Shown here: positions 11,464 to 64,000 of the stretch, one piece after another
Numbering within the stretch: the first letter of the stretch is position 1
Layout of the letters: each line of letters begins with the position of its first letter
Origin: a virus
Length of the DNA: 64,000 nucleotides
Reading direction: 5' to 3' (one strand)
Virus record (IMG/VR): IMGVR_UViG_3300021387_000118
Span: 13,168 to 77,167 of that record
The notes under the pieces: model-generated
What the model was told of the DNA's origin: nothing
Databases searched by the model: none
The model's input: the letters and a program-made list of their open reading frames with translations, nothing else
Made by a program: the position numbers and the translations under genes

Positions 11464-11482
11464 AATTCTTCCTCCTTAAAAT

Positions 11483-11986: not shown

Positions 11987-12090
11987 TGGTTCAACCTCCT
12001 TTCCCAAAATCATTAGTAGTCACAATCCTTTTAGTCCTTTGGGAGGTTAGTCCCCTTATATATAAACAGCTTATGAGGCTGAGAATATTG

Positions 12091-13095: not shown

Positions 13096-13126
13096 TCATA
13101 TCACCTCCTAAATTATAGAGGCCATA

Positions 13127-13654: not shown

Positions 13655-13681
13655 AATTGTTTTCTCCTTTAATTCATTATT

Positions 13682-14257
13682 TTAATATTCGATAAATTCG
13701 GTTGCCGAAATACAGTCACTATAAATTTTCATTATGTCTCCAGTTTCGAAAAATCCATGAGCAGGACCAACTCCATCATCTTCCGCACTCATACACCACG
13801 GAGTTGGTATAGACCCTTTTTCCAGTTTCCATTTTTCAATATACATATTACGATCACCATTGGCACCACCTGGTGAATTATATATATTAAGCCATAAATT
13901 CGCTGCATTTGCATGAGAGGCATTCGCCTCAGTTACAGTAAATGTCTAATATAAATAATCAGCATGACCATCAGTAAAATAATTTGTTCCAATCATGTTG
14001 CTACCCAATCTAACACTGCCTCCGCCCCAATAAACGCCCATTCCCAGAGTGTCAGCAGTTTTCGCCGTATGAGAAACATCAACATTCCAGAACTATATAG
14101 TATATGTCTAATTTGCGACAAGGTTCTCAGATAAGTTTAACTGATATGCATTATAAGCAGCTGGGTTATATGTTTTCGGATCTATTAATAATAAGTTTTC
14201 ATTAACATTACTGCCACCAGCTATAATGTTTCCTGTTTTATAAAATCCAACGCTCAT
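13682..14257 (-). CDS. Hypothetical structural protein (three in-frame TAGs; invisible in the ORF track)
   Basis: RBS GGAGGGA before the ATG at 14257. The frame is continuous to TAA at 13682-13684. About 191 aa: MSVGFYKTGNIIAGGSNVNENLLLIDPK... Confidence 0.4.
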
Positions 14258-41463: not shown

Positions 41464-41489
41464 ATTGTCTTTCCTTTCTATATTTAGTT

Positions 41490-46577: not shown

Positions 46578-47409
46578 TAATATGCACCCACCTTTCTAGG
46601 CTCTCTCCATGTAAACGTTACATTTGCACCCTGAGTAACCGTAAAGATATTTTCGCCGTTATATAATTTAGGCCAATAAAATTGTGTAAGATCAGCAATC
46701 CCAATGTCTGAAAATGCAATATCATTTCCATCCTGATCGTATATGAGATATTTTTGACAATCAATATTTACTTCGGTGTTGGATGGGATTGTTAGCGTTA
46801 ATGAATTATTACCATCTGTAACAGCAGTAATAGTAACTTCACCAGCTGAATCACTAATAGTTACAATAGGATATAATTCACGTTTCCTTTCCGCTGAATT
46901 AACAACTATCTGTAATTGATTATCATCCTAAGTACTTGAAATTTGTTTCTTTTTTTCTTCAGTCCATGCGAACGGCGAATTAGTGTGAAACGTACAATTT
47001 AATCCAATAATGTCTCCATTCCATACCTATGATTGAATGTCGCTAAACACCCCAAAATATTCATACCTTGTAAAACTTTCCAGATCATCGTCGTACATTT
47101 TTAATAAAGTAGGATAGTCGGGAGATGTGAGCCACGCAGCTATCTCATTTACTTCATATTCAGTAAAAATCATACCTTCATCATCTGGAAATTCGCAAGG
47201 ACTTTTTATGAATGAAACATCGAACGACAGAACGTCGGACCACTAAGTTCCCATATTTGTTGTAATAGATCTATATCTATTTAGTCCACTTGAAAGGACT
47301 TCGCGAGATAATCCCAATGGGATTTCTTCGCTGACAGATATGCCACCAATCATTAAATTATAACTGGTAGAATTAATTCCATCATAATCAAAACTAAATG
47401 TTCTCAATT
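46577..47409 (-). CDS. Distal tail protein (Dit)-like
   Basis: RBS AAAGGAG with an 8-nt spacer to a TTG at about 47409. Protein starts LRTFSFDYDGINSTSYNLMIGG... as Dit proteins do. The TAA overlaps the Tal ATG (TAATG). Coordinates approximate, because my hand translation has a 1-nt inconsistency. Confidence 0.45.
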
Positions 47410-47475
47410 TTTCATCTCCTTTCTTTTCCTATAAGAAATAGAAGAGTGCGCTTTGACACGCACCCTTCTTAATTA

Positions 47476-50400
47476 TCATGCTCTTTTGTTATATGCTCTT
47501 TTGAAATTCTATGTGTTATAATCAAATTGTTTTTGCATAAAGTTACGATCTTTTAATAAGCTGTTTGCTATAGCATCAATCTTATTCAACATGTCACCAT
47601 CTACATTACCATCAATTCTGATAAGAGATTCATAATAGTAGTTTCCACCACTATTTACACTGCTTACATTGCTAACATTTGGAACAGAAGTATTTGCTTT
47701 TGTCGGATCTATTTGACTCCATTTCCAAATATTATCAGATTGCAGTTTAGGAAGAACTTGCGAACCCTATGGTAACTGCCTCAAAATGGCCCCATTTCCG
47801 AGAATAATCTCGTCATTATGAGTCAGCGCAAGTTCATCTTCATTGATTCTCTTTGAGCCTTTACGATAAGATTTTAACTTTGACGCACTGGTAACTCCCA
47901 ATTTCTTCAAATGTTTCTTAAGCTCAGATAACACGGCATTGCTCTGTTGAGATGTCCATGTCTTATCTACATGAACACCAAGAGCATTGGCTAATTTAGT
48001 AGGAACACCTTTAGAAACAGATCTTCCAAAAGTAGATGCTATATAATCGCCAATTGCGCCACCGCCATTATTCTTACCTTTTGGTAACCCTTTAATAATA
48101 TCAACAACCCTATCTGAAGTATTTAATAACCAATTCGCATGTGAATCGATATACTACTAGGTCGCCGGATCTGATGATACTGTTCCTGTTGGAGTTGTAT
48201 TGGTAGTATTATTTATATCCGTATTGATTGATCCAATTCCCCCATCTGCGGCTCCAACAGTACTTCCAGCCTAAGATTGTGCCTTTGTTGCTTCAATCAT
48301 AGCGGCAGAATATTCTTTAGCTTTTTTAATGAGATAATCAAGTTTTTCGCCAGTTACAGTTGCAAATGTATCAATAGCAGTAGTATCAATGTTTTGAGCA
48401 ACAGCACTAGTGAATTTTTTCCAGTTATTAGTTGGAACAAGAGTTTCTTCATTGATCGCTCCAAAGAATGCATTTAAATTAGGATCTTTTAAGCAAGCGT
48501 CTGATGTTTCACTAACAACAGTTCCGGTAGCTTTAATCCTCTGGTCAACAGTGTCATATGCCTCTTGATAATGACCAACTAATTGATTCAACATCATTTG
48601 AACAATACGGTCTTGTTCATCCGTGTTTGCCGCAATATGACGGAGAGTCTGATCGAGTGTTTCTTGAATATCCTATGAAAGTTGATCATATCCTTGGTTA
48701 AGCATATCATAGCGATGGTTGTATCTGGTATCTTCTAATGACTCATCTGCATCAGATAATTGCTGTCTTAATCTTGCGGCCTCAGCTTGTGCTTGTTTAT
48801 TAGTGGAACCTTCCAAGGAATTTAATTGCGCAAGAACTTTATTACGTTCTCTATTTTGATTTGTCACTTGCTTCTGATAATCATAATATGATTTTTGTTG
48901 ACTTAAAGCCTCTTTTCTTAATTCTATATTTTTTTGAATAGCAGCATTTTCATTCTATATCTATACCTTGTACATTTCGATCAATGCGTTCTTGTCTTCC
49001 TTCAGGTCTACAGCCATGCTTTGGATTTGCTTTCTATATTCATCGACTTGTTTTTCGCCTTCTTCAACACTTATGTTGTGGTTTTCCATTTCTTCATTTA
49101 CTTTATCTATAGCCGATCTTAAATTACCCATTTCATTAATGGTTGTTTTATAGTGATTGCCCAATAATAATATATTTGCTAAACCTTTATTGGTAATGCC
49201 CCAACCTTCGCCATCATCATCAAAGAATTCTTCTTGACTAAATAAACCGCGAAGATGTTCGAAATCGGATCTAGTAGTCTCAAGTTTATCCTGAAGACTG
49301 TCAAACTCTTTCCAGCGGAGAGAGCGGATGGATTTCTTAAGATTCTCATTCTAAATCACCATTTGTCTGAGCGCGGCTTCATCAGCTTCAATAGCAGACT
49401 TCAATTGATCATACTGTTCAGAACCTTCTTCGTACCCCATTGTATCTAACAATCTCTTATTATAATCCAATCTTTGTTCTGTGTATATGATATTTGAATT
49501 ATTATTTTTGATCTGACTATTATAATCATTCTCAGTTATGTAAGAAGATGGATCATTAAGTAATGTACCTCTGGCTTCTTTAAGAGCAACCCTATCTTGA
49601 TACATTTGTGCTTCTGCTTTGATGCGGTTCATCATATAATCAATAGGCTTTAAGTTGAGATCATACATCGCTCTTGTTAAATCTCTTGCATTCTTTTCGG
49701 ACTGTTTTAATGCAGTTGCCATACCTTGATAAGCTGTTTGTGCCTTACGATATTCGTTACTATCTACACCGAAAATTCCGGCAGCATTTCGCATTTCATT
49801 AAGATATGCATTCATTTGTGCTCTATAAATTTCCTGCGATTTGCCCTCAAGAGCAATCTGGTTAGCATACTCCTGCATATTACCATAAGAATTATCTCTT
49901 AATCCTTTAGAAGCATTAAGATCAATAATGGCCTATGAGGTCTATGCAACGGCTTGAGCGTATTCGTTTAAGGATTCGTATTGCTCCGTGATGTTATCAA
50001 GTTTCATTTGCTGAAGTTCTTTTTGTTTTGCAATACACTCCTCGATAGCATCCTCACACTCCAAAATTTTTTCATACCACGTTTGATATTCATTAATATA
50101 CGCTGTTGCTCTGTTTTCTGTCTTACTAGAATCTTTTCCGCGTGATGTTTTCTTGGTTTTAAGATACTTAGAAAAGTCTTCTACTGTTAATCCGCCTTCT
50201 TTAATTAGTTTATTAAGACGTTTTGCTTCTTTAGATGTCACTAGTCCAGAAGATTTCGCTTTCTTAACAACCGTTTTTAAATGAGAGGTATATCCACCCT
50301 TCTTTGAAATGGCACTTTCATTGGTCTGTCTTAAACTGATATTGGTAGCCATTGCGTCATCTATATACTTATTCTTTGCAGCGTAACCAGTCTCGCCTTT

Positions 50401-53400
50401 ATATGATGACGGCGCATATCCTCCAGCTCCACCTATATTCTCTGCTCTGGATATTGCAAGTTCCATTGTTCGAGTCAATCTTTTGATGCGAACTTCAATC
50501 CAATCCATAAACGAAGATGCCCAGTTCTGGAATTTCTCAAGAGCAGTAGTAGTGTTCTCTGTTGCTTCGGTTTCTTTTTCTTTAGCATCTGTGTTAGCTT
50601 GTGTAGCTTTAGTGTTGGCTTTTTCAGATGACGATTTTGAAGTGGATGGACCATTATCATTAGAATGAATTGTCGGATTCTTAACATCTACTGAACCACC
50701 ATGTGCCGGACCTATAGGTCTTAAATCAGCCAACGAAACTCCAGATCCTTGAGCAAATGCTTTACCGTGACCTAAAGCTTTTCCATGTTCAATCAGATCA
50801 GTAGTTTGCATATGATTTAGAATTATATCTCCTTTTTTAAGAGCTTCTACATGCATACCACCTGGAATTAAGAACCATTTCCCATCTCTAATAATCGATT
50901 CGGTTCCTAATTCATTAACAAGTGCTTCTTCGTCTTGATCAAGTCCTACTTTACCATCAGCAAAAGCACCAGAAATAGGTCTAAGATTAATAGCATTATA
51001 AGCAGTTCCATCCGCATGAGCAGGAGAGATCATAGTACCAGTATATTTATGTGTTCCACCAGGTAAACCAAATACATTTGCGGCAACAGATATTGTAAAA
51101 GGTCTATTAAGCGCCGCATCAATACTACTACTAATCTATGATGTTTCGGCAGTAACCGGAATCTATGCAGTTCTAGAATTAATATCATGAACAGCAAAAC
51201 TAACGCTACTAATAGCCGGAGAAGTATTCGCATCAACTGTTATTTCTCCTTTTGTATCATTTGCTTTTGATTCAACATCCTCTATGGCTTGTTCTGCCTA
51301 CTCTGTATTGGCACCAACCTATACATCATTTTGCGTTAACGCAGTAATAGATTCCTGATCTAATTTTACAACTAAATCTGCACCTTTTGATACTTCGTCT
51401 AATACCCCTCTAAGAGTTTCAAGATCTTCTTCTCCAGTTATCTCTACCCCAATATCTTTTGTTTCATCTTGAGCCATTTCTTCAATTTGTTGTGGAGTAT
51501 ACCCTTGGCTTGATAATTCGTAAACAACATCAATAATCTGTTGTTTATGTTCTGTCTACTCTTGAATATCAGGATTAGCTTGCCTTAAATAATTCTGTTC
51601 TGCTCTTGTATCATCAATAGCATTACCAGTCTGAGTAGGAGCCTTTGGTCTTGTTGAGTACGATTGTTCTTCTTCCAAGCCAAACAATTCTTTTAAAGTG
51701 GTAACCAAAGCATTTCCAGCTTCTTGACCAAGACCAAGCTTTGCCAATAATGAATCAAGCGCTCCCTCAAGTGCTTCATCCTAAACCTTGCCATCACCAA
51801 ATATAATTTTATCAAAATCTTCTCCTGTATAGCCCTCTAAAGAACTCATAATAGAAGTCATTTCTTCGTCTAACCCATCAGCAGAAGTATATGCTTCTTT
51901 TAATTGAGCAACTATTCCATCATGAGTTTCATCACCATTTTCAGTAAGATTAGATATGTCAGCATTTTCTGCTATAACAGGAGTAATCTTGACTTCATTA
52001 TAATCTGGGAATGCTCGTTGCATTGCCTCTTCGTCAACTTCTTTTAAGTCTGGAGTTAATTTAATATGGGTTTCATCTGCAATCTATTGCACTCTGCGTT
52101 CAAATGTATCTTGATCAATTTCCCCACGATTAAACATGTTCTAAATTGATTTAAAATCAGCGATTCCATTCCTGAGTTCTTTTGCTGTTACCATTCCTTC
52201 TCTGGCAGCAACATCTTGCGTGTTTTCAACAAGTTTGCGCTGGCGAGTTTTAAGATCTGTTATCTAATTATTAAGATCCTAAAGCTCCTCGTCCGATGCT
52301 CCCTCTCTACGTGCCTTATTATATCTAAGTTGAGCATCAACAAGGTCTTCCATATTATCTTTAACTTTAAGTTCACCCTCCGCCTATGTATTAACAAGAT
52401 CGACATAAGCACCATAATCCTCGACCCTACCAAGAAGAATATCTAATAATTCCGTTGTAATACCAAGACTATGAGCTGCCTCATCCATGTCTGGCATAGC
52501 AAGAGTATATCCATCATCTGTTTTTGACCCAAAACCTTTATCGACAGCATCTTTTATAAAATTACTTAATCCAGTAGCATCTTCAGTGAAATATCTTTTA
52601 ATCTTTTCAATATTTCTATCATATGCAGCAACAGTATCAGATCCATATTCATCAATCATTGCCGTAAATGCTCTAAACTCATCAGTTCCGGTTAGTCCTT
52701 TGGAGTAAGCATCTTGCATATCTTTTAATGCGCTTTGTATTGTATTATATCTATCACCACCATTTGCAGTAGACTCAGCATTTTGCCATTGCGCAAAATC
52801 TGTGAATTGTTGCTTCTATTGATCGTACAAAGCTTGAAGCATAGATAATTCACGTTCAGCTGCGCTAATACGCTATTCAGCCGCTGCAACTGCCTTTTGC
52901 GCAGTTTCCGTTTCAGCATCACCGTACATTTCAATAATGTTTTTCTGTTCTTCAATCGTATCTTTTAACGTACTTACTTGCAGTTCATATTCTGCATCGA
53001 CTAAAGTTTCTGCTGCATCCGCATTCATTTTCATGCCATCAGCACTCTAATAGAAAATACTACTGACATCATATCCAACAAGATCACTAAATTGTCTCTA
53101 TAACTCATTCATAGTATCAATAGTTAATCCTGTTTCTGAGTTCATTTCGCTAAAAGCAGAAGAGAGAACCGATACTAGTTCTGAAGCATTAGTAGATACA
53201 AGAGATGTCATAGTCTCATACCAACCAATTTGACTTTGTTGCATAGCAGAGATAGAAGCATCTACATCATCAATCTGAGATTGATACTCACGCCATGTAG
53301 ATCCGCCACGCTGAACACCCCTTTGAAGATTTTCAAGTTCTTTTCTCTATTGTTTAAGATTATCAATTTGCTCATTACCATTACTAATCAAAGATTTGTA

Positions 53401-56400
53401 AAGAGATTCACTTGTCTTTTGATGTTTGACATCAGCAGAATTAAGTAAATCTTCAGTTTGAGAAGCTTTTGTTTGAAGATCAGTATATTCGTTTTGAAGG
53501 TCAGTAAGAGGTAATTCTTTTAATGTCTTGCTATATTCATAATACTTAGATGTTAAGGAGTCCAATGCTGTTTCTGCCTAAATATACTATTCATTACGTT
53601 CTTGCCAAATAGTATTAATGTTACCATTTTTATCAAACATTTCAGTATCATCAAGCAGATCCTTTGCGGCATCTCGTACAATTTTGGCTTGCTCTAATAT
53701 GCCATCATTACCCTCATATGGAGCCATTACACCCTCAATATAATCTTTCGTAACCTTTCTACCAAGATTTTCTAATTGTGAATAATCACTTTCAAGAGCT
53801 TCAGCCTACGACTGAAGTTTAGCTAATTCAGCAGAAGCCTATTGATATGGTAATTCTTCTTGCTCTTTTCTCATATTAAATCTTTGTGTAAGATTACTCC
53901 ACCAATCAGACTTATTGCTCTATCTATTACTCCTAGCATTCTATGCACGTTCAGAATTCTCTCCATATACAGCGGAATATATTGTTTCCTATGCTCCATA
54001 TATTGCATCAAGGACGTTATTTCCAATAATCTGTTTGCTAAGATTATCTATATTCTTTTTATAGTCAGAATCTGACATCCCTTGTCCTTTTGTCGCATTA
54101 AATTCCTACTCATTCTAAAGCTCTGTTAATGCATCTTTATATTTTTGAATAGCGTTAGCAGCTTGTTCTCCAGGAAGTTCAAATAATGATCTAGCAAAAT
54201 CAGACTATGTATCACGAGCGCTGATTAAAGAATCTACAAGTGAATCAATGGCATCTTTTTCCTGATAATATGCATCACTGCCATAAGCAATGGAGCCGTC
54301 ATTCATAGCTTCTTGTAATTTAACTCTTCTCCTTGCGATCTATTCTTCAATGTTTTCTATGTTTTCTTCGTTTAATCCCATTAAGTTCATATAACCACTA
54401 GCGGTCGGCTCTCTTTTTTCAAAATCAGCCTAAGCTTTTTCAAATGAACGAGATATTTCTGTGCCAGTACGTTCTAGCTCTCTAAATGGAAGTTCACTTA
54501 TTGCGTTTTTATATTCATATATTTTCTGCGTTAAATTATCAATAGCATCGGCATTACTATCATAATTGTTTTGCATTTCTTGCCATTCGCTATTATTACG
54601 TGCATATTCATCGAATGATGATTTTGCTTGCTCGAAAGACTCAAATTGATGACTTGCCATATATTCGCGCCTAAATTGATCCTGTTGTGCCAAAATTTCA
54701 TCTTGTTGATTAGCAAGATTAGACTTCTCAGCCCTAGCTGCATCAATTGCGCCCTAATATATTTCTTTTGTAATATCTCCACCCATAGTTTCTCTGTTGG
54801 AAATTTCTTTCTCGGCTTGTGCTGTCGCTCTGGCAAGTTCTGTGCCAATATTTTGAAGATTGGTTAATGGAAGTTCATTGATTGCTTTACCCCAATTACG
54901 GATTTTCTCTATAATAGAATCTAAAGACCCTTGGTTAGTGTCAAGATCTGCCATAAACTGTTGCCATTCCGTATTCTGCGCAAGTATTGAATCCTTTTGT
55001 TCTTCCCAAGCGGCATCTGCTTGTTCTTTCGACTCAAATTGATGACTCGCCATAAACTCTTTTCTTTGCATCTCTTCAAACTATGTGGCTTCATCAAGAA
55101 TTTCTTGTCTTGTTCTTTCAAGATTTTCTTTTTCGGCAGAAGCAGAATCAATAGCTTGTTGATACAATGACTATGTAGGAACATTGCCAATGTTCTCAAC
55201 ATTTTGAATTTGTCGTTCCGCATCAGCTGTCGCTCTGGCAAGTTCCGTACCAAAGCTTTCAAGTTCAACACGAGGTTGTTTTAATATAGCTAAATTATTT
55301 TTCTGTTTATTAGTTTTTTCGCCAAATATTAATCCGGTTAATTCCTTTACTCTGTTTTGCAATATGGTATTCTTAGGACTCTTAGCGAGTTTTTCTTCTG
55401 CTGCTTTTAGCTATCCTTCGTATGCTTTAATTAAACCATCACTTATTGCGTTGTCAGCTTCGTAATCCTCAATTGTCATTGCATTACCGAGAACATCATC
55501 TAATCCTTGCTTTTGAGAATTGAGATTTCTATCGGCAGTAAGAGAGTCAATTGTTTTCTGTAAGTTTTCTGTTTCAACTTCAAGATCCCATACAAGTTTA
55601 TAATCTCCGTATTTTTCGATCAATGTATCAACGTCACCAGAGAATTGATCTTGTAATGCAAGAACTATATTCCAATTAAGATCTTCACCGTATTTTTCTT
55701 TCAAAGCGCTTAGTTTATTGTTAAACTATTCGTACTGTGCAATCCTTTCTTCATTATCATAAGCTGGCGCAGTAATAAATGATTCCCTAACCTATTTTAA
55801 TGCCTCTTGTTCAGAGACATTAACTTTTCTATAACTAGCAGTAAAATTAGCAAGATAGGTATCAAGCTACTTAATTCCTTCATCAGAGAAATCAGTCCAT
55901 CCAGATTTAAACTAATCTATCCAATTGCTAAGTTCCTTTGTACCGAATTTTGAAATACCTTCCTCTGAAAAATCAGTCATGTCTGGAAACTCTTCTTGTA
56001 AATCGCGCATTTGCTCCGCTGTAAGAGATCCTTCTGTGCGAAGTGTTTCAAGCGCCCCCGTCAACGAGGAGAGTCTCTTCTCATATCCTTCTGTAGCAGA
56101 TTGATAGCTCTCGTCTGAGAAAATAGAAGAGAGGGTGCCATCTTTTTCGATTTCTGGTACTTTATCCTAATATTCTTTTATCCAATCGAGAAGATCATAA
56201 AATCCTCCGCCAAGTTTAAAATCAAAACTGCCATTATCTATTGCCTCAATTATGCTACCTTTTTGCCCTTGGGTTAATTTTGACAACATACGTTTATCTA
56301 TACGGCCTTCATCTCCACCAAGTGCTTCGTATATTTGATCGTTCACATTTTGATATGAAGCAAAATAATTACCATTCTCATCGACAAATTCATATTTTAA

Positions 56401-58040
56401 TGCAACCTTAAAAGTATGCTATAATTCTTCGTCTCCAGGGAATAATTTTTCTAAAATGTCATCTAATTGATTTGTCATTTCCGCATCTGTTAAATCAGAA
56501 GAGTCAAATGTAAATAAACTTTCAATTTGTTTAGTAACTTCTTCTTTATCTTGTTTTGTTTTGGCTCTATCAAATGCATTAGATAAACTATACATCAATT
56601 TATTTTTAATATAATCATCAAAGTTTTCGAAAATATCTTGCTCTTCAAATGCGGCATATGCCTTACTCAAATCAATACCAGACACAGCAGATGCTATGCC
56701 ATTTTGTATTGTCTCAGAGAATTCTTTATAGGTTGCTGTGGTTGTAAATTTTGACATAAGAGATGGTTTTAAGGATTCCCAATTATCTTTAATTTGTCTC
56801 TCAGAGATATTTATATTGTCTTCTGCAATTTTTGCCTCATCATAAGAAGAATCTCCAGAAAGACCAAGTAACTTGTTCGCTTCTTCAATAGCATCTTCTA
56901 ACTAATCAGTATCTGCATTAAAGAAATATGTGACTGTTGGAGCAGTAATATTACCTTCTGCATCCATTATATTCCCACCGGTAATCCATTGATCAGTTAA
57001 ATTGATTCCATTTTTACCAAATCCTTGCTCAAACGCTTCAGATACTTTTCCACCATAATCCATGCTTTGGTCAATAACTACCTTATAACCATCTTCGGTT
57101 TTTTCTATGAAAGATTCAATTCCATTTTTTGTCGCATCAATATTTGATTTAGTAGCTTTTACCATTGATTCATTTTCAGATATTGTGCGTAATTCTTTAT
57201 CATTCTATGCAAGAACACCATTCAACTAATCTTCGAATTTGTCTCCGATTTCTTTGTTCGCCAGATCTCTCTGTACAGCAAGCAAATCCTGTAGTGACTG
57301 AGTTGCTTTATCAGCATCTGTGCCAAGATTTACATATGCATTTCCTTGAGCATCTGTACCAGCCCTCAACGATGGGTACAAATCAACCAATTGCCTATTT
57401 ACATCTAAAAATTCATTATACTCATCAGTTGACAAAGATGCATTTTCGTATCCTTTACCCTCTTTATATGTTACACCAGACCTTAATTCATTATAACGCT
57501 TTCCTAAATCTGTTGTAGATGTTTCTCTTTCTTTATAATTTTTATTAACATCTTCAATTTGCTATTGAGCTTTTTTACCTTTTGCTATTAAATTATCTTG
57601 CTTTTTAATAACATCATTATATATCCACTCAATTCCTTTTCCGATTACTGTAATAATAGCTGTTACAGCAATTGTTGTTAATGCGGTTGATATTAAAGAT
57701 TTCAATGCCCCACCGAACTTAGCAAGCGATGAAACAATATTTGGCATTGCTTCTGGAACCATCCGTACAGTTGTCTACATTTTTCGCATTGCATCTCCCA
57801 TTGATAATGCCTATAATTCTGTATCGGACATACTGTCTTTTAATCTAGCAAAAGCATCGCTACTAACAACGATATTTTTAGCCCATTCATTAGTATTTAA
57901 TTGTTCCATAAAATTGCCATCAATTTTGAAATCTTTTAACGCTGTTTGTAATGAAGCACTAAGCGGTTTAAATACTTCTTCTTCAACAAGTTTTTTGTCA
58001 GGATCTCCAGAAAAGAAATTTTTTATAGCATAACCCCACA
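47476..58040 (-). CDS. Giant (~3520 aa) coiled-coil tail protein (tape-measure-like; TM helix, ~100-aa tandem repeats, putative peptidase region)
   Basis: All 18 track fragments from 57811-58074 down to 48271-48597 have end mod 3 = 0, and each begins at a CTA (TAG). The sampled gap 51034-51360 translates without TAA/TGA. Likely start is the internal ATG about 58040 (RBS GGTGA; MWGYAIKNFF...). Tandem repeats MASHQFES..GTELARATA at 54430-55362. TM segment LISTALTTIAVTAIITVIG. TGA at 47476. Confidence 0.5.
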
Positions 58041-58144
58041 TGTTTTCACCTTTAGAAGTCGTAGATAAAATCATTACATATAATAGTAAAATACATATGG
58101 TAAAATATAAATGCTAAAGATAATGTTTTTGTAGTTGAACAACA

Positions 58145-58175
58145 AAAAAGAGCGGCAAATCACCGCTCCATATAC
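58145..58175 (-). terminator. Rho-independent terminator of the DUF262 gene
   Basis: On the minus strand, GAGCGG-tgatttg-CCGCTC is followed by TTTTTTGTT, 8 nt after the TGA stop. Confidence 0.55.
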
Positions 58176-58182
58176 GACCAAC

Positions 58183-59169
58183 TCAGCAGATGAATCTGTT
58201 AAACTCATTATTCAATATCTCAATCCTTTTAGCAACATTAACTGCGTGTCCTGCGCCCTGAGAAGATGCTAAATTATATTCTTCACTAATGCTGCTTCCT
58301 TTTTCACCACCAAAGAAGTACTGAAGGAATGGGATTATTTTCTCATCATCTCCATGCTTTTCAATAAATGGTGTGAGAGTAGGTATGTTACCACGAGACA
58401 TTAATTTTCTCATAACAAACCTATTCTCTTTTTTATTTTCAGCAAGTGCATCATAAATGGTTAAGAATTTATCATATATACCAGAAAGTCTCTCAACATC
58501 TTGTGGCTCAATTTCAGTAGTACGCATAAATGGACCAATCTCTTTAGAGTCGAGACAAGGCTTATCATTAAACAACATAATCAGGCTTTGAATAACGATT
58601 GTCCTCTGCGCAAGTTTCGCCCTAGCGTTATTCGTTAACGCAACAAGGAATATTTTATGATCGCACAACTGGGAGATTTCATTTTTCGAAATAGCCTTCG
58701 CATAGTTACGATCATTAGCTTTGAGAGTAGTACCATTATTCAGTCTATAGAAGATATCTTCAATTTCTTCCTGAGTAATATCATCAAAAATAATAAGGTT
58801 CAAATTGTATTCATCAATTTTATCTCTAATTTCTTCCGGTAAATCAGAATATCTCATACCATTAATATCAGTTTCAAAATCATCCTCAATTATAGATGGA
58901 ACATCTTTAAGAGCGTATTTACCGTCCATAAAATCTATTATAGCAAAACATCTCTGTTTCCCGTCTATAAAATCGAAAGATGCTCGTCCGGCTTTAACAA
59001 CATAAAACGGTGGAACAGCATAGTCCATAATTAAACTATGAATTAGTAAAGATTTCTGCTGTACGTTCCAAACAATTCCACGTTGAACCTCATTATCAAA
59101 TGTTGCTTTGTTCGCTGTATATTGTCCATATAGTTTCTTTGCCGTCCAATTTGTTTGTGTTCGTATCAT
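58183..59169 (-). CDS. DUF262 (ParB/Srx-like nuclease-NTPase, GmrSD/SspE N-terminal type) protein; standard-code moron
   Basis: RBS GAAAGGAGTCAACT before the ATG at 59169. 328 aa with no in-frame TAG, unlike all its neighbours. DUF262 hallmarks EVQRGIVWNVQQKSLLIHSL and FIDGKQRCFAII (DGQQR motif). Own promoter upstream and terminator downstream. TGA stop. Confidence 0.75.
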   Translation of the reverse strand: MIRTQTNWTAKKLYGQYTANKATFDNEVQRGIVWNVQQKSLLIHSLIMDYAVPPFYVVKAGRASFDFIDGKQRCFAIIDFMDGKYALKDVPSIIEDDFETDINGMRYSDLPEEIRDKIDEYNLNLIIFDDITQEEIEDIFYRLNNGTTLKANDRNYAKAISKNEISQLCDHKIFLVALTNNARAKLAQRTIVIQSLIMLFNDKPCLDSKEIGPFMRTTEIEPQDVERLSGIYDKFLTIYDALAENKKENRFVMRKLMSRGNIPTLTPFIEKHGDDEKIIPFLQYFFGGEKGSSISEEYNLASSQGAGHAVNVAKRIEILNNEFNRFIC

Positions 59170-59195
59170 AGTTGACTCCTTTCGTTTTTTATTTA

Positions 59196-59223
59196 ACTCT
59201 AGCAGAGTACAACAATAGAGTCA
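59196..59223 (-). promoter_or_regulatory. Sigma70-like promoter for the DUF262 gene
   Basis: On the minus strand, TTGACT-17 nt-TAGAGT lies about 25 nt upstream of the RBS, in a 275-bp gap after the tape-measure stop. Confidence 0.35.
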
Positions 59224-59445
59224 AGATTTTTTAATATCCACTTTTATTATCAGTATTGCAAGCACGATAATGGGAGAGTGGTACCCATATATAGGATTTC
59301 GACTGTATATTACGATAAAAACAATTACGCCTGTTCTTACCACATCTTGTCAGTCTGTCGCTCGGATCTTCGATAGAAGAGTGCCGAGTCGGGATCGTTA
59401 TCATATTGATAGTTTTCCCCGATATTCGATATATTTTTATGGCTG

Positions 59446-62400
59446 TCATCTGACCTGTATTAGCAACATAATGGCATTGTTATTATGTTCTATACAGAGG
59501 GCATTTCTCCTACGACTTTTACCCTTGCCATTAATTTGTAGGAATATTCCTGCCGCTGCGCCCATTAATGTATTAAGATGACCAAACGCACCACCAAGAT
59601 CATTAAGTAAATTTAATAATTGAGTTCCAAGATCAATAAATCCCTTAATCCAGGATGAATCAATTGCTGATGCCGTTAATTCTTGAAGCGCATTTTGAAA
59701 TTGTGCAGCTTTACCTTGAATAGAATCAAGATATTTGTCTAATTCTTGTTGTGCTGAACCTTCTGAATTTAATGATGCTTCATATACCTCTTGTAATGTT
59801 TCAAAGTTGTCAAGAATCGAACTTGCCGCTGCAGCCCTTGTCTTACCAGCTATCGTTTCAAGCAAGAAAGACTATCTATTAGTTCCCATCTTTTTGTCTT
59901 CTTCGCCAATCTCTTTCCAAACTGATGCAATTCCTTTTAACATTTCATATGTTGTTTTATAGTTTCCGTTTTCATCAAGAATATCAAATCCCTGATAATT
60001 ATTGGCACTAACTTTAGTTGCATCCATGATTGTCGATCTTAATTTTGATTGTGTTGTTATAAGACCATCGATTTCTTCTCCGGCTTCTTGCATGTCTTCT
60101 ATGGAAGTTCCTGTTAATCTTAAGGCAATAGTACGAAGCGATTGACCAACCATTTGCGGGTTCTGAAGAACCTGATTTCCGGCTACTGTCAATGCGATGC
60201 TTTCGTCTATTGAATTTCCCGCAACCTTAAGTGTTCCGGCTGATCTTTGTAACGATTCTGCTAATTCGCTAGTTGAAATGCTAAAGTTATTACCTATGTT
60301 GTTCAGTTTATCAATGATATCAATTTTATCTAATTCCTGATAAGCTTGACTCATTGCCACCAGTGATTCTGTTGCAGTATTAATATCTTGAAACTCTGAT
60401 ACGTTGAGCAGAACAGTAGAGTATTCTGCACTTTTGCTTGCTTCTTTTAAATCCTCACCTAAGCGCATCCAATCGGCAGTACTAGCTGAAATCTATGCCG
60501 CAGTTGTTCCAACTCTATCTGCTATATCAAACGTTTCAAATTGATATTCTTGTAATGTTTGTAAACTTTCATCTGATACTTTTCTCATCTCTGTAAGTTG
60601 CGTATCAAGTTCTGTTACTGTTTGAATTGCTTCACGTCCATAACGAATAAAATCCTGGAAACTGAGATAATACGTCGCAAGACTAGTCATTGTGTTTTTG
60701 AATTGATCTTTGAAACGGTCACCGAGAGATTTGCCGAGAAGACCACGTTTTGCAGCATCTTCTTGTATTTTCTAAAATCTCGCAGTCCAATCTTGTGCAG
60801 CCCCCTTACTGCCAACCTATGATATGTCATCTTTTAATTGTTCAAGAGCTTCACTAAATTCTTTCGCGGCAATTTTATTCTGATTCATCCATTTCGCCAG
60901 ATCTGCGCCAGCCTTGGCCTACCAATCTCTTCCTACATCCTAAAAATCGATACTTTTGCTTACATCTTGATATGTTTTTCTTATTTCAAGTATCTATTGT
61001 TTAAAATCCTCTAATCCTTTCTCATCTATTATATCTGATGGATTTAAAGCCGTAAGCGAATCTTCTATTTTTTTTACTCTATCATCCCATCCATCCGCTC
61101 GCCATTCCGACTAACCTTTCATTTTATCTACACGATTAGCCATATCATTATACAATTTAGTGGCTTCGGCATTAATCGCGTTTTGTTTTAACATCTCTTC
61201 AGTATTCGTAGTAGATGCATTTTTTAATTCTTCTCTTGCTTGTACTTGTTTCTTTGACAAATTAAGACCTTCTGCTAAATCATCGTTCCAGCTCTATTCA
61301 ATACTTCTAATCTCTGTCATTAGAGATGCCATTTTTTGGAACTACTCATTTGTTAACGCAGTATTGCCAACTATATCTCCATTATCGTTTCGTTTCCATT
61401 CGCCACTTAATGCCTATTGATAAATTTTCTAATATTCGGCCCTGTCATTAGCATATTGATTTAATGTCTATCTTGTATTTTGTGCCTACATTTTCTTAAA
61501 TACAGACTTATATTTTGCTGATTGCGTCGGATCATTAAAAGAATCTTCGGCGCGAGTCCAACGATTCTACATTTGATTCGAAATATTACCATTAAATTTA
61601 TCAGTAACTTTATCGAGTGCTTCGCCAGCAGAAATAGCTGCTTCTTTTGCATCATTTAAATCTTGAACAAGCTTTGAATCTCCCTTTCCCCCAGACGCAT
61701 CCAATTTTGCTTGCAATTCAGCTACTTTGTCTGTAGCGTTTTCAAATGCAATAATAGCACTTTCTACTTCTTTAACAGATTTTTGATTAAAATTGTATTC
61801 ATCCTATGTATTTTTTAAATTCTGTTTTATAGTACGTAATTCATTCTAAAATCCAGTCATTGTATTTGAAGTAGCTTTGTCCTTAGATTTATTAAACCTA
61901 TCAATTAAATCGTTCAATTCCTTTTCAAGCTATTCTGTATCAGCATTTGATTCTTTCATGTCACGCAACGTTGATTGAAGATCGGTATTTAGTTTTGCCT
62001 TTGCTGCTTCTAAATTATCGGGACGAAGATTAGACGCTACTTTTTGATTTTTTTCAGCCTACTGAGCTGACAATCTATATTGCTTCAATAGATTATCTAA
62101 TTCTTGTCGCTCTACTTTATTTGTAGAACCCTTTGTACGTAATTCGCCAATTTTCTTCGTGACTGCATTATAAGCATCTTCAACCTTTTTCTTGTCTTCG
62201 CCTGAAAAATCATATGCACTACCATCAACATACTATTGCTTATATCTATTAAGTGTTGCTTCCTAACGACTTAATAACGCTTCTGTTTCTTCTATTGCCT
62301 TTTGCTTCAATTTTTCTCCGCTTGCAAAATCTTTTGCATCTTTTATGTCATTCTTTGCCTGATGCTTTTTCGTTTCGGCAGTAACTCTTTCATTAAATAA

Positions 62401-64000
62401 ATCAATTGAATAATTCCTATGTTCGTCAGCATAAGTTTTAGCCTATTCATTAATTGATCTTTGTTCTTCTTCAAGTAAATCAATATATTCTTTTATACTA
62501 CCAATTAACTTCTAATCTGGCGTGGAAGCTCTCTATGCTTCGTCAAGTGCCAACATCGCATCAGATAATTCGTTTGTAACACGAATAGCGTCACGTTCAA
62601 AAGAGAGGTAGTTAGTTGTTTCTGCACTAAATGGTTCCCAAGTTTTTTCTTTACGATTCCATTTTACACCTTCTTCATAAGTTCTACCACGTTCATCCTA
62701 ATATGTTTTAGATCGTTTACTTGGAGTTCTTTGCTCTTTGATGATTTTACCTTCTTTAGGAGACTAATCTGCATCACCAACCAAATTATCTTGCGCCTGT
62801 TTTTTTGCCGAATCACCTTCCTGTTTAATTCCCTCCGCAGCTTGTTTTGTTGCATCCGCTGTTTCTTTGGCAGAAGAGGCGACTTCATTATTTGCTCTTG
62901 TAAAATCAATTTTTGCGACAGCGGCAGTTTTCGCAGAATCTCCCTCGGTTTTAACACCTTCAGCAGCTTGTTTTGTTGCATCCGCTGTTTCTTTGGCAGC
63001 CTCGACAGTCTTTTCTTCTTGGTTAGTATCCTATCTATCACCTGTCTTTGATGCTTCTTCCTTCTTCTACTTTAATTCTTCTTCTGCCTTAGCAGCATCT
63101 TCCGCAGCTTGTTTTTCTTCTTTGTGCTGCTCAACCATAGGAGAGGAGGGCGGCTGCTGAACCCCAGATGCATCTGCGACTTTCTTTTCTGCTTCTGCAT
63201 GTTCTTCAGCGGCTTTAGCAGCTTGATGATGAGCATCAGCAGTCTCAGCGGCGGCATCTTTTTCAGCCTGTTTCCGCTTCTCTATTTCCGCTAATAAATC
63301 AACACCATATTTTTTGGCCTCATTTATGTAACTTTCTTGATCGGTTTCTATTATACGGCGATCTTCACTATCTGAAACACCAGGTCTTTTGGGAGGGTTC
63401 GATTTTTTCTCTTCAAGTCGTTGATACGCCTGTATTAAGCCCTCAACGATTTCCTACTCAGTCTTACCGGATTCAATTATCTATTTGCGACGCACAGCAT
63501 TTCTATCTGTATCCGCTCTCCATGGATCTCCATTTGCAATTGCAGCATCTTCAATCGCTTGAAACATTTCTTTTATTGCGTCCTCTGCCGACATCGAATC
63601 ATATTTAATTGCCTCAATCATCTCGTGATATTTAGCTTCTGTATCATCAAACGTCTTTGCAGAAACACCGTCCTCGAAATCTGGCATCGCTTTGTTAAAT
63701 GCATCAAGATTTGCTTGAATTTCAGGAGAAAACTAGATTTTTTGCCATTTCTAAGACGTTTCGTCAAACGCTACATCAAGGCGTTTCGCAACTTCCTCCA
63801 TACCTTTCATAGCATCTTCTGCACTAATCGCGCCAGAATTAATATCTTGGATATATTGCATATAAGCACGAGAGAGTGCCTCTGGTGGTTCTGTAGATTT
63901 TAATACGGATTTTGTCCAGGTGTTTTTAAAGTCATCAACGGTTGATGAAACTGGAGTTTCATCGGATAATTTACTTCTATATGATTCAATGCTTTCCTTA
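59446..64000 (-). CDS. Tail tape measure protein, TP901-family core region (partial; continues past the 3' window edge)
   Basis: Fragments 63481-63687, 60493-60690, 59872-60468 and 59446-59865 share one frame joined by TAGs. A continuous hand translation from about 62900 to 59446 has many TAGs and no TAA/TGA. The region DRFKDQFKNTMTSLATYY...LKVAGNSIDESIALTVAGNQVLQNPQMVGQSLRTIALRLTGT matches the TP901 tape-measure core. TGA at 59446. Confidence 0.65.

What the first reader, a model, noticed from the sequence alone, without database searches (positions are those of the whole stretch)
47476..64000. Tape measure apparently split by the DUF262 insertion; more than 5000 aa of coiled-coil protein between the major tail region and Dit
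The upstream gene carries the TP901 tape-measure core but ends at 59446 with an odd, non-glycine-rich 28-aa tail (INGKGKSRRRNALCIEHNNNAIMLLIQVR). That looks like read-through into inserted DNA. After the moron, the 3520-aa downstream gene (coiled coil, central TM helix, tandem ~100-aa repeats, peptidase-like region) continues in the same frame and lacks an RBS at its first ATG; an internal GGTGA-ATG at about 58040 may restart translation. Either the tape measure is expressed as two polypeptides or the downstream gene is a second, independent giant tail protein. Either is unusual, and the implied tail length would be extreme.
Basis: inference. Interest (0 to 1): 0.6.

Follow-up and report, generated by a model that had tools for sequence, protein, structure and literature searches.

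The report
Self-splicing intron inside giant tape-measure gene
The two huge tail genes are one 6,733-codon tape-measure gene of a stop-codon-recoded phage, interrupted by a self-splicing group I intron that carries the DUF262 gene; the predicted tail is about 1 µm long.

Summary
Read that way, the minus strand carries a tape-measure (TMP) N-part (59521 to beyond 64000), a 1,449-nt insert (59520-58072) with a TAG-free DUF262 gene, and a 3,531-codon C-part (58071-47476), followed by a Dit-like gene.

The insert is a group I intron, not a plain moron insertion.
- Its first ~290 nt fold into P1-P9.
- On five diverged copies at the same TMP site, 96.6% of cells pair and 32 of 77 pairs carry compensatory changes. 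Slid controls give 1-4.
- The U·G 5' splice site, a bulged-A P7, a covarying P10 with the 3' exon, and a terminal G are all present.
- Rfam's model misses it.

Splicing gives ...INGKG|ILSTTSK..., which is colinear with uninterrupted TMPs of relatives (more than 7,509, more than 5,251 and 5,206 codons). The "odd tail" is 24 translated intron codons. The shared frame and the RBS-ATG at 58041 are not conserved. One relative has ACG instead of ATG at the exon-2 boundary.

The intron ORF has a ParB/GmrSD-N fold, is NsnA-like, shows no recognisable nuclease domain, and has its own promoter and terminator.

Verdict: a known mechanism with unusual cargo in a record-size gene. Splicing itself has not been tested.

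The parts
59521..64000 (-). TMP exon 1, in-window part (1,493 codons). The full exon 1 is 3,202 codons and starts about 5.1 kb beyond the window end in the source contig. It ends ...GIFLQINGKG with GGU.
   Evidence: TAG-sense ORF. Source contig L015 gene 44..9724 with RBS AGGAGGTG. The homology break with L002 falls exactly after INGKG.
59890..60519 (-). PhageMin_Tail (TP901-type) tape-measure core domain.
   Evidence: Pfam PF10145, E 4.3e-17, residues 1161-1370 of the in-window ORF. tblastn hits annotated TMPs of Enterocloster, Lactococcus 949 and Bacillus phages.
58072..59520 (-). Group I intron, 1,449 nt. The 5' splice site follows U59521 and the 3' terminal G (omega G) is 58072.
   Evidence: Splice sites come from colinearity with the uninterrupted L002 and with intron-bearing L018, L021, L022 and L076.
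59235..59520 (-). Ribozyme core P1-P9. The P1 guide GCCC is at 59502-59499 and pairs with exon GGGU 59524-59521. The P10 guide GAAAU is at 59507-59503. The P3-P8 core is ~59440-59293.
   Evidence: RNAalifold gives 79 pairs, 29 of them compensatory. The manual group I structure gives 96.6% paired cells and 32 of 77 pairs compensatory, against 1-4 in slid controls. MFE z = -3.9. Custom CM R1 hits 59293-59440.
59446..59520 (-). The 'odd tail': 24 intron codons (KSRRRNALCIEHNNNAIMLLIQVR) plus a stop, read in frame from exon 1 on unspliced RNA. It overlaps the P1 loop and P2.
   Evidence: The tail is conserved in L018 (KSRRENALYTEHNNNAIMLLVQVIL) because the RNA is conserved.
59196..59224 (-). Sigma-70-like promoter of the intron ORF (TTGACT-17-TAGAGT with extended -10 TG), followed by RBS AAAGGAG.
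   Evidence: TTGACA and TGnTAnnnT are conserved in L021, L022 and L076.
58183..59169 (-). Intron ORF: a 328-aa DUF262 / GmrSD_N (ParB-Srx fold) protein, NsnA-like, with no in-frame TAG.
   Evidence: Pfam, PADLOC NsnA 1.1e-28, phrog_2598. AF2 model pLDDT 92. Foldseek top hits are BrxU N-domain, ParB/Noc and SspE. TAG-free in four lineages.
58139..58169 (-). Intrinsic-terminator-like hairpin plus T tract after the intron ORF, on the same strand as the TMP.
   Evidence: Equivalent hairpins occur in L018 and L021.
47476..58071 (-). TMP exon 2: 3,531 codons plus TGA, beginning AUUUUAUCU (ILSTTSK...).
   Evidence: It is colinear with the distal part of the uninterrupted L002, L003 and L008 TMPs.
58039..58041 (-). 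It is codon 11 of exon 2.
   Evidence: There is no equivalent in L018, L021 or L022.
57628..57708 (-). The single strongly hydrophobic segment of the TMP (aa 3324-3350). It is the second membrane-like helix after the core.
   Evidence: Hydropathy scan. The order core-TM1-linker-TM2-coiled coil is the same in the Enterocloster phage PMBT24 TMP.
52645..55263 (-). Diverged tandem repeats of ~135 aa (TMP aa 4139-5011).
   Evidence: blastp of one unit against the TMP.
46577..47479 (-). Dit-like distal tail gene. Its ATG overlaps the TMP stop codon (ATGA).
   Evidence: Pfam DUF6558 N and C domains plus SPP1_Dit. Sequence.

Best explanation
Window 47476-64000 (minus strand) is the distal two thirds of a single tape-measure gene of a TAG-recoded (TAG = Gln) siphovirus-type phage.

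**The intron**
- The gene is interrupted after codon 3,202 by a 1,449-nt group I intron (59520-58072).
- The ribozyme core (P1-P9) occupies the first ~290 nt.
- The rest of the intron is a loop-out. It carries a self-contained, standard-code expression cassette (promoter, RBS, 328-aa DUF262/ParB-fold ORF, terminator), followed by ~70 nt that end in the terminal G.

**Proposed expression (inferred)**
- On late transcripts that read through the cassette, the guide sequence pairs with exon 1 (GGGU/GCCC, U·G at the splice site) and then with exon 2 (AUUUU/GAAAU, P10).
- The intron is excised and the exons are ligated to ...GIFLQINGKG|ILSTTSKGENMWGYAIKNFF....
- The result is one 6,733-residue TMP.
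- At ~1.5 Å per residue this predicts a tail of roughly 1 µm.
- Unspliced RNA would give only a truncated N-part ending in 24 intron-encoded residues. That is the 'odd tail'.
- The DUF262 gene is cargo that can be expressed independently of the code switch. It is either a passenger (defence or competition gene) or the intron's mobility factor.

**Shown**
- The anatomy, the conserved and covarying RNA structure, and the splice-site definition.
- Colinearity with uninterrupted relatives.
- The fold of the ORF.

**Inferred**
- That splicing happens in vivo.
- That TAG is read as Gln.
- The tail length.
- The role of DUF262.
For: 1. **Continuity in relatives.** The closest relative, L002 (86% identity in the core), has one TAG-sense ORF of at least 7,509 codons through the site. 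L003 has more than 5,251 codons. L008 has 5,206 codons in the standard code.
2. **Exact junction.** L002 reads INGKG-ILNYDQ. The window reads INGKG|[insert]|ILSTTS, and L018 reads NGLG|[insert]|IFNYDK. The spliced junction aligns as one HSP with L002 (E 8e-78) and L003 (E 4e-36).
3. **Conserved structured RNA.**
   - The same insert sits at the same site in four further diverged lineages whose DUF262 is 74, 60 and 53% identical.
   - RNAalifold finds 29 compensatory pairs.
   - With the group I topology, including the P3/P7 pseudoknot, 96.6% of cells pair and 32 of 77 pairs have double changes. This compares with 1-4 for slid partners and 0 of 500 shuffles.
4. **Group I hallmarks.**
   - Invariant U·G at the 5' splice site.
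   - P7 with a bulged A whose closing pair switches C-G to G-C.
   - A-rich J4/5.
   - P10 covaries: L022 exon 2 AUCUU pairs with guide AGGAU, and the others have AUUUU with (G/A)AAAU.
   - The terminal G is present in 5 of 5 copies.
5. **Against independent translation of exon 2.**
   - Intron length mod 3 varies.
   - L022 has ACG at the boundary.
   - There is no RBS at the first ATG.
   - The RBS-ATG at 58041 is unique to this lineage.
6. **Intron hot spot.** The TMP core of relatives has nine Rfam RF00028 hits of 65-86 bits. A CM of this intron's core also finds other interruptions (L005 E 3.6e-5, L013 3.5e-4, L010 8e-4).
7. **Not an artefact.** The identical arrangement occurs in three independent assemblies (ENA, JGI, Logan).
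8. **Code.**
   - The ORF has 0 TAG in four lineages, against 1.6-3.3% TAG in the exons.
   - TAG aligns with Gln in 15 of 37 well-aligned positions, against a 5% background.
Against: - Rfam's group I model RF00028 does not detect this intron in any of the five copies, even at E<=10 on a 381-nt slice.
- P1 is invariant, so it has no covariation of its own.
- Only five sequences, effectively four lineages, underlie the covariation.
- A terminator-like hairpin lies inside the intron on the TMP strand. In L018, L022 and L076 there is also an antisense gene. Late transcription must read through both.
- The ORF is not a recognised homing endonuclease, so the origin of the intron's mobility is unexplained.
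- No RNA or protein data were available, so splicing is not demonstrated.
- The window lineage has a good RBS-ATG 11 codons into exon 2. That could allow separate synthesis of the C-part.
Confidence: 0.8

Rival explanations
1. Gene in pieces. The intron is no longer spliced, or is spliced too rarely to matter, and the tape measure is made as two polypeptides. The N-part is 3,226 aa ending in the intron-encoded tail. The C-part is ~3,521 aa started at the RBS-ATG at 58041. The two associate, for example through the two hydrophobic helices that flank the break, to act as one ruler.
For: - A good Shine-Dalgarno plus ATG lies at 58041.
- A terminator-like hairpin between the halves would separate the transcripts.
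- The break falls between the TM1-like and TM2 segments.
- Splicing has not been shown.
Against: - All helices of the ribozyme are intact in the window copy.
- P10 and the terminal G are maintained across lineages whose ORF has diverged to 53% identity. That implies selection for splicing.
- The RBS-ATG is absent in L018, L021 and L022, and L022 has no ATG at the boundary.
Confidence: 0.1
2. A non-intron mobile cassette. The conserved 5' RNA structure is a regulatory or processing element of the DUF262 gene, not a ribozyme, and the TMP is simply disrupted or split.
For: - There is no Rfam group I hit.
- The DUF262 gene has its own promoter and terminator.
- Homologues occur as ordinary genes next to integrases.
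Against: - The structure lies upstream of the DUF262 promoter, so it would not be in that gene's transcript.
- It pairs with both exons, through P1 and a covarying P10.
- It has the group I-specific helix order with the P3/P7 pseudoknot and a bulged-A P7.
- It is absent from the integrase-linked DUF262 loci.
Confidence: 0.05
3. The downstream ORF is a second, independent giant tail protein, and the upstream ORF is a complete tape measure.
For: Gene callers annotate two genes. No Pfam domain was found in the downstream ORF.
Against: - Both parts lie in one uninterrupted ORF in L002, L003 and L008.
- The N-terminus of the downstream ORF is not conserved as a start.
- The domain order matches a single TMP.
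Confidence: 0.02
4. Assembly chimera or a recent defective mutant.
For: The data are metagenomic only.
Against: - The same arrangement occurs in three independent assemblies of the same phage.
- It also occurs in three diverged lineages.
Confidence: 0.01

Closest known systems
Phage T4 group I introns (td, nrdB, nrdD/sunY) with embedded, separately promoted ORFs (from my own knowledge)
   Same: - A self-splicing group I intron inside an essential phage gene.
- The ORF is looped out of the ribozyme and has its own promoter.
- As in sunY, the catalytic core lies 5' of the ORF and the 3' splice site is far downstream.
- Unspliced RNA yields a truncated product.
   Different: - The host gene is a virion tape measure rather than a nucleotide-metabolism gene.
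- The ORF has a DUF262/ParB fold rather than a GIY-YIG or HNH endonuclease.
- A terminator-like hairpin follows the ORF.
- The exons use a recoded stop codon while the ORF does not.
- The intron is not detected by RF00028.
Group I introns in phage structural and packaging genes: Lactobacillus phage LL-H and Bacillus phage Moonbeam terminase (PMC4299906); Cluster J mycobacteriophage capsid and tail genes (PMC3706429)
   Same: Introns interrupt late morphogenesis genes of Firmicutes- or Actinobacteria-type siphoviruses and myoviruses.
   Different: - Those carry canonical homing endonucleases or no ORF.
- My searches found no paper describing an intron in a tape-measure core.
- No comparable density of sites is reported there. 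Here at least 7 sites fall within ~250 codons across relatives.
Genes in pieces created by free-standing homing endonucleases, e.g. Aeromonas phage Aeh1 nrdA split by mobE (from my own knowledge)
   Same: An essential phage gene appears as two ORFs flanking a mobile gene.
   Different: There the halves are translated separately and assemble. Here a conserved ribozyme and splice sites indicate RNA-level repair.
[quoted passage not shown]
   Same: A multi-thousand-residue TMP in a siphovirus, with extreme predicted tail length.
   Different: - This TMP has 6,733 codons and a relative has at least 7,509, which I believe is longer than that of P74-26.
- The host environment appears to be gut or rumen, not a hot spring.
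- The tail has not been measured.
Stop-codon-recoded gut phages (Borges et al. preprint 10.1101/2021.08.26.457843)
   Same: - In-frame TAG in late or structural genes, with standard-code-compatible early genes.
- That paper also notes a group I intron endonuclease in a recoded phage.
   Different: There the intron endonuclease itself is recoded and sits in an early gene. Here the arrangement is reversed: a code-neutral ORF inside an intron of a heavily recoded late gene.
GmrSD / BrxU / SspE and Menshen NsnA (DUF262-containing defence proteins; PMC4619093, PMC12065111)
   Same: An N-terminal DUF262 ParB/Srx-fold domain with the DGxQR motif, and the best profile match is to NsnA.
   Different: - No DUF1524/HNH nuclease domain; the C-terminal half is all-helical.
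- No NsnB or NsnC partners are adjacent.
- The gene is located inside an intron.

Membership tests
Group I intron | 5' splice site after a U that forms a U·G wobble in P1 with an internal guide sequence | tested here: met
   Exon GGGU (59524-59521) pairs with GCCC (59502-59499). U·G is present in 5 of 5 sequences, but it is invariant, so there is no covariation.
Group I intron | Terminal G (omega G) at the 3' splice site | tested here: met
   The intron ends AAUG in four copies and AACG in one. The G is kept while the preceding base changes.
Group I intron | P10: the guide sequence pairs with the first bases of the 3' exon | tested here: met
   A 5-bp helix with 100% of cells paired and one compensatory change (A-U to G-C in L022).
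Group I intron | Core helix order P3-[P4-P5]-P6-P7-P3'-P8-P7'-P9 with the P3/P7 pseudoknot, supported by covariation | tested here: met
   Overall 96.6% of cells pair, and 32 of 77 pairs have double changes, against 1-4 in slid controls. Double changes per helix: P3 2, P4 2, P5 2, P6 4, P7 2, P8 3, P9 and P9a 8.
Group I intron | P7 guanosine-binding helix with a bulged nucleotide next to a G-C pair | tested here: met
   C-A(bulge)-GACUG / CAGUC-G. The closing pair switches C-G to G-C in L021 and L022, and the G-C pair is invariant. The assignment as the G-binding site is by analogy with Tetrahymena and td, from my own knowledge.
Group I intron | Match to the curated covariance model (Rfam RF00028) | tested here: not met
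   No hit at gathering score or at E<=10 in the window, L018, L021, L022 or L076. The same model scores 65-86 bits on other introns of relatives' TMPs.
Group I intron | Guanosine-dependent self-splicing | not testable with these tools
   Needs an in vitro transcript assay or RNA data.
Intron-encoded homing endonuclease | Membership of a known HEG family (LAGLIDADG, GIY-YIG, HNH, His-Cys box, PD-(D/E)XK, EDxHD) | tested here: not met
   The only Pfam hit is GmrSD_N. The AF2 model is a ParB-like domain plus a helical domain, and the Foldseek hits are ParB/Noc, BrxU N-domain and SspE.
Intron-encoded homing endonuclease | Cleaves the intron-less allele near the insertion site | not testable with these tools
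   An intron-less allele is available for a test: L002, AACGGTAAAGGG|ATATTAAATTATGAT.
GmrSD type IV restriction enzyme | DUF262 N-domain plus DUF1524 (His-Me/HNH) nuclease C-domain | tested here: not met
   DUF262 is present. There is no DUF1524 by Pfam, and the C-terminal half is all-helical.
Menshen (NsnABC) defence system | NsnA together with adjacent NsnB and NsnC genes | tested here: not met
   There is an NsnA-like profile hit at 1.1e-28. The neighbours, however, are the two TMP exons, plus an antisense Zn-ribbon gene in some relatives.
Tape measure protein (TP901-1 / PhageMin_Tail type) | PF10145 core domain | tested here: met
   E 4.3e-17. Homology to annotated TMPs.
Tape measure protein (TP901-1 / PhageMin_Tail type) | Gene position immediately upstream of Dit in the tail module | tested here: met
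   A Dit-like gene starts at the TMP stop codon with an ATGA overlap. The upstream tail chaperones lie outside the window and were not examined.
Tape measure protein (TP901-1 / PhageMin_Tail type) | Protein length sets tail length | not testable with these tools
   Needs electron microscopy. The ~1 µm figure is an extrapolation.
TAG-recoded phage (genetic code 15-like) | Many in-frame TAG codons in long conserved ORFs, aligned with Gln in relatives | tested here: met
   There are 128 TAG codons in the spliced TMP. ORF total rises from 5,375 to 17,228 aa when TAG is sense. Gln lies opposite TAG in 15 of 37 positions, against a 5% background.
TAG-recoded phage (genetic code 15-like) | Phage-encoded suppressor tRNA(CUA) | tested here: not met
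   There is no tRNA in the 64-kb window. The rest of the 142-kb genome was not examined.

The most novel reading that the evidence does not exclude
The group I intron is a vehicle for a self-transcribed, standard-code ParB/DUF262 (NsnA-like) gene. That gene is either a new class of intron mobility factor or a defence or competition gene that hitch-hikes inside an essential, recoded late gene, where it cannot be lost without precise excision. On this reading, the intron class that Rfam misses is widespread in the giant tape-measure genes of these phages.
Probability: 0.25. Interest if true: 0.7.

Novelty: new variant of a known kind. Interest (0 to 1): 0.5.

Why it matters
1. **Annotation.** The result turns an apparent split or duplicated giant tail gene into one gene. 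It shows how recoding plus introns can fragment phage genes in automated annotation. Gene callers report 2 genes here under the recoded code and about 30 fragments under the standard code.
2. **Size.** The spliced TMP has 6,733 codons, and relatives reach at least 7,509. These are among the largest phage genes. They predict tails at or beyond the ~1 µm record of P74-26, which electron microscopy of rumen or gut viromes could test.
3. **Intron biology.**
   - The TMP core of this phage group is an intron hot spot.
   - Part of these introns escape the Rfam model.
   - The alignment and structure here could seed a better model.
4. **Cargo.** An intron that carries a non-canonical, code-neutral ParB/DUF262 gene with its own promoter raises a testable question. 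Are such proteins new homing factors, or defence cargo protected by residence in an essential gene?

Tried and rejected
- **Standard-code reading.** It gives only fragments, so it was abandoned for TAG-as-sense. TGA or TAA reassignment gave no gain.
- **Rfam.** Searches on the window (gathering), on 57700-59800 and 59180-59560 at E<=10, and on L018, L021, L022 and L076 gave no group I hit, only chance snoRNA/sRNA matches.
- **tRNA scan.** No tRNA in the window.
- **Near-identical phage DNA.** Megablast of the region against GenBank phages found no match.
- **DUF262 in IMG/VR.** No locus found.
- **15-mer scan of IMG/VR** (GGGTAAAAGTCGTAG). It gave 49 loci, all chance matches by nhmmer.
- **Genome-collection scan** for the intron 5' motif. 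No hits.
- **Fetching the end of L002's TMP.** Attempts via the C-terminal protein, the Dit protein and walking by exact DNA failed beyond 7,509 codons.
- **Intein hypothesis.** Rejected, because stop codons and a separate promoter and RBS lie within the insert.
- **Sequence similarity to relatives' introns.** blastn and nhmmer of the intron 5' region against the relatives' Rfam-detected introns found none.
- **Repeats.** TRF found no DNA tandem repeats, and whole-protein self-blast was uninformative. A single-unit query was needed.
- **Solved structures.** A PDB sequence search with DUF262 gave no hits.
- **Literature.** Searches for DUF262 with intron or homing endonuclease found nothing relevant.

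Full report
**1. Checking the observation**

Under the bacterial code the region 47476-64000 contains only short minus-strand ORFs and no 3,520-aa gene. Testing each stop codon as sense showed that only TAG reassignment makes long ORFs. The total in ORFs of at least 300 aa rises from 5,375 to 17,228 aa.

With TAG as sense the minus strand carries three ORFs in one frame:

| ORF | Coordinates | Notes |
|---|---|---|
| Upstream | 59446..>63999 | at least 1,517 codons, 32 TAG, runs off the window |
| DUF262 | 58183..59169 | 328 aa, no TAG |
| Downstream | 47476..58182 | 56 TAG |

- The upstream ORF has the PhageMin_Tail/TP901 tape-measure core (PF10145, E 4.3e-17).
- The middle ORF is DUF262 = GmrSD_N (PF03235).
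- The downstream ORF has no Pfam domain at E<=0.1.
- A Dit-like gene (DUF6558 + SPP1_Dit) starts at the stop codon of the downstream ORF with an ATGA overlap.

TAG aligns with Gln in 15 of 37 well-aligned positions, against a 5% background. There is no tRNA in the window.

Some details needed correction.

**2. Are the two giant ORFs one gene?**

The upstream C-terminus matches annotated tape measures of Enterocloster, Lactococcus 949-like and Bacillus phages up to residue ~403 of 429. That is exactly where the odd tail starts. In the Enterocloster phage PMBT24 TMP the order is core, hydrophobic helix 1, linker, hydrophobic helix 2, then a long coiled coil. In the window the break falls between helix 1 and helix 2.

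Thirteen related loci were fetched from IMG/VR.
- In the closest, L002 (86% identity), one TAG-sense ORF runs through the site. It is at least 6,877 codons in the locus and at least 7,509 after extension.
- L003 has more than 5,251 codons.
- L008 has a 5,206-codon ORF in the standard code with no TAG at all.

At the junction L002 reads ...GIFLQINGKG-ILNYDQLLGGWEFGG...IKQIFSGD. The window reads ...GIFLQINGKG|KSRRR...QVR* on one side, and on the other side ...ATG|ILSTTSKGENMWGYAIKNFFSGD. So the two ORFs are halves of one tape measure. The 'independent second giant protein' reading is excluded.

**3. What is the insert?**

The identical arrangement occurs in three independent assemblies: the 142,374-bp ENA contig that is evidently the source, a JGI contig and a Logan contig.

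Diverged DUF262 homologues (74, 60 and 53% identity) sit at the same TMP site in other phages: L018/L019/L020, L021, L022/L023 and L076.

More distant homologues (44-47%) are ordinary genes next to integrases of temperate phages, with no such flanks.

In L018 the foreign tail is conserved (KSRRENALYTEHNNNAIMLLVQVIL*). Exon 2 there begins precisely with IFNYDK after an ATG.

Aligning the ~300 nt between the TMP break and the DUF262 promoter in these lineages showed blocks of conservation with obvious compensatory changes. RNAalifold predicted 79 pairs, 29 of them with double changes.

I then assigned a group I topology by hand:
- P1: exon GGGU with guide GCCC, U·G at the splice site.
- P2 and P2.1.
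- P3, which forms a pseudoknot with P7.
- P4-P5, then P6.
- P7 with a bulged A, then P8.
- P9 and P9a.
- P10: guide (G/A)AAAU with exon-2 AUUUU.

The counts on an alignment that includes the 3' splice region are below:

| Measure | Result |
|---|---|
| Cells paired | 96.6% |
| Pairs with changes on both sides | 32 of 77 |
| Same measure with partners slid by 1-3 columns | 1-4 pairs |
| Shuffles reaching the observed values | 0 of 500 |

Three details are specific to group I introns rather than to any structured RNA:
- P10 covaries with the 3' exon. L022 has exon AUCUU with guide AGGAU.
- The closing pair of P7 next to the bulged A switches C-G to G-C.
- The last intron base is G in all five copies, although the preceding base changes (AAUG in four, AACG in one).

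The window copy folds more stably than shuffles (z = -3.9) and has all helices intact.

The intron is therefore 59520-58072 (1,449 nt).

**4.

- **Frame.** Intron lengths in the five lineages are 1449, 1961, 2161, 1517 and 2035 nt, i.e. 0, 2, 1, 2 and 1 mod 3. The shared frame in the window is chance.
- **First ATG.** The first ATG of the downstream ORF (58074-58072) is the end of the intron. Its G is the terminal G. In L022 it is ACG, so exon 2 there has no start codon.
- **Restart.** The RBS-ATG at 58041 has no counterpart in L018, L021 or L022.
- **Odd tail.** It is the in-frame translation of the P1 loop and P2. It looks conserved because the RNA is conserved.
- **Spliced product.** Splicing yields 3,202 + 3,531 = 6,733 codons with 128 TAG, starting at a strong RBS in the source contig. 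The spliced junction aligns as a single HSP with the uninterrupted L002 (E 8e-78) and L003 (E 4e-36).

**5. The caveat: Rfam**

RF00028 does not detect this intron in any copy, even at E<=10 on a 381-nt slice. Yet it scores 65-86 bits on nine other introns in relatives' TMPs. I therefore record the curated-model criterion as not met and rest the assignment on the structural hallmarks.

A covariance model built from the P4-P8 core of this intron (R1) finds only this copy in the window. It also hits interruptions of relatives' TMPs that Rfam misses:
- L005 9061-9224, E 3.6e-5.
- L013 9754-9904, E 3.5e-4.
- L010 10981-11131, E 8e-4.
- Weak hits exactly at the 5' ends of the 1.5-kb insertions in L011, L012 and L014.

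Across relatives the TMP core is interrupted at seven or more sites within ~250 codons. Several of these interruptions carry zinc-finger or HNH-like ORFs typical of homing endonucleases. So this gene is an intron hot spot, and the window's intron belongs to a class that the public model covers poorly.

**6. The intron ORF**

The ORF has several features of an independent expression unit:
- A sigma-70-like promoter with extended -10 (59224-59196), conserved in the other lineages.
- A strong RBS.
- A terminator-like hairpin (58169-58149 plus a T tract).
- No TAG in any of four lineages, while the flanking exons have 1.6-3.3% TAG. The chance of zero TAG is about 0.002 for the window copy.

It can therefore be translated without the code switch.

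On what the protein is:
- It matches PADLOC NsnA of the Menshen system (1.1e-28) and phage family phrog_2598 of unknown function.
- It has no PDB relative by sequence.
- A confident AF2 model (pLDDT 92) shows a ParB/Srx-like N-domain and an all-helical C-domain.
- Foldseek's best matches are the BrxU (GmrSD) N-domain, ParB/Noc CTPase domains, SspE and a DndB-like protein.
- There is no DUF1524/HNH or other recognisable nuclease domain, so it is not a member of any known homing-endonuclease family.

Two readings remain open. It may be passenger cargo. Supporting this, homologues are ordinary moron-position genes next to integrases, and the same intron loop also accepts an antisense Zn-ribbon gene in L018, L022 and L076. 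Alternatively it may be a new kind of mobility factor.

I found no paper linking DUF262 to introns or homing.

**7. Mechanism proposed, and what is unresolved**

*Shown:* the anatomy, the conserved ribozyme, the splice sites, and colinearity with intron-less relatives.

*Inferred:*
- Late transcripts read through the cassette.
- The intron self-splices with guanosine.
- One 6,733-residue TMP is made.
- Early or unspliced RNA yields DUF262 and, at most, a truncated N-part.

The terminator-like hairpin on the TMP strand, and the antisense gene in relatives, are the main tension. Either late transcription is termination-resistant, or splicing efficiency is modest. Much less likely, the halves are joined in trans or work as two chains. 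The last possibility is the principal rival, at about 0.1.

**8. Comparison with what is known, and novelty**

Group I introns with separately promoted ORFs in essential phage genes are classical (T4 td, nrdB, sunY; from my own knowledge). Introns in phage terminase, capsid and tail genes are documented (PMC4299906, PMC3706429). Recoded phages with intron endonucleases have been noted (10.1101/2021.08.26.457843). So the mechanism is known.

What differs:
- The host gene is a tape-measure core, and my searches found no description of that.
- The cargo is non-canonical and code-neutral.
- The curated model fails to detect the intron.
- The gene is exceptionally large.

P74-26 is described as having the longest known tail, at nearly 1 µm (PMC10034513). 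At ~1.5 Å per residue, 6,733 residues predict ~1.0 µm and the relative's 7,509 or more predict over 1.1 µm. This is extrapolation, not measurement.

I rate this a new variant of a known kind, with moderate interest (0.5).

Noticed in passing
window 1-64000 (whole): The phage uses TAG as a sense codon in its late and structural genes, with best support for Gln. There is no suppressor tRNA and no Rfam family anywhere in the window.
   Followed up: partly
window 33115-41487 (-): Several standard-code ORFs lie in one frame, separated only by single TAG codons: 33115-34338, 34339-35352, 35353-36345, 36883-39348 and 39988-40899. They merge into a 2,790-codon ORF if TAG is sense. This may be another giant structural gene, or several genes that use TAG ambiguously.
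   Followed up: no
L004-L014, around locus positions 10460-14150: The tape-measure core of related phages is interrupted at seven or more different sites within ~250 codons. There are nine Rfam group I hits (65-86 bits), plus further interruptions that Rfam misses. Some of the latter are hit by a model of the window's intron core: L005 9061-9224, L013 9754-9904 and L010 10981-11131.
   Followed up: partly
L006 18471-18751: A further Rfam group I intron (84.5 bits) lies far downstream in the distal part of a relative's tape-measure gene. Introns are therefore not confined to the core domain.
   Followed up: no
L018 ~11100-11620; L022 6053-6565; L023 1270-1782; L076: In three lineages the same intron also holds a ~170-aa zinc-ribbon gene on the opposite strand, with its own promoter and RBS. 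It lies between the DUF262 terminator and the 3' splice site.
   Followed up: no
L002 + L077 (IMGVR_UViG_3300021387_000308): The closest intron-less relative has an uninterrupted TAG-sense tape-measure ORF of at least 7,509 codons, and its end was not reached.
   Followed up: partly
L008 3563-19180: A related phage encodes a 5,206-codon tape measure with no in-frame TAG. Recoded and standard-code members therefore coexist in this phage group.
   Followed up: no
L024, L025, L026: DUF262 homologues (44-47% identity) sit directly after the integrase gene of temperate phages, opposite the lysis cassette. This is a typical moron or defence position, and no ribozyme is present.
   Followed up: partly
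window 52645-55263 (-): At least five diverged tandem units of ~135 aa (20-45% identity) lie in the distal half of the tape measure. They suggest the gene grew by internal duplication.
   Followed up: partly
window 47476-47479 (-): The tape-measure stop codon TGA overlaps the ATG of the Dit-like gene (ATGA), which suggests translational coupling.
   Followed up: no
window 59525-59528 with 59435-59438 (-), approximate; alignment A4 columns 4-7 with 95-98: RNAalifold also pairs the exon bases GGCU/GGCA, just upstream of P1, with an invariant AGCC after P2.1. I cannot tell whether this is a real exon-intron contact or chance.
   Followed up: no
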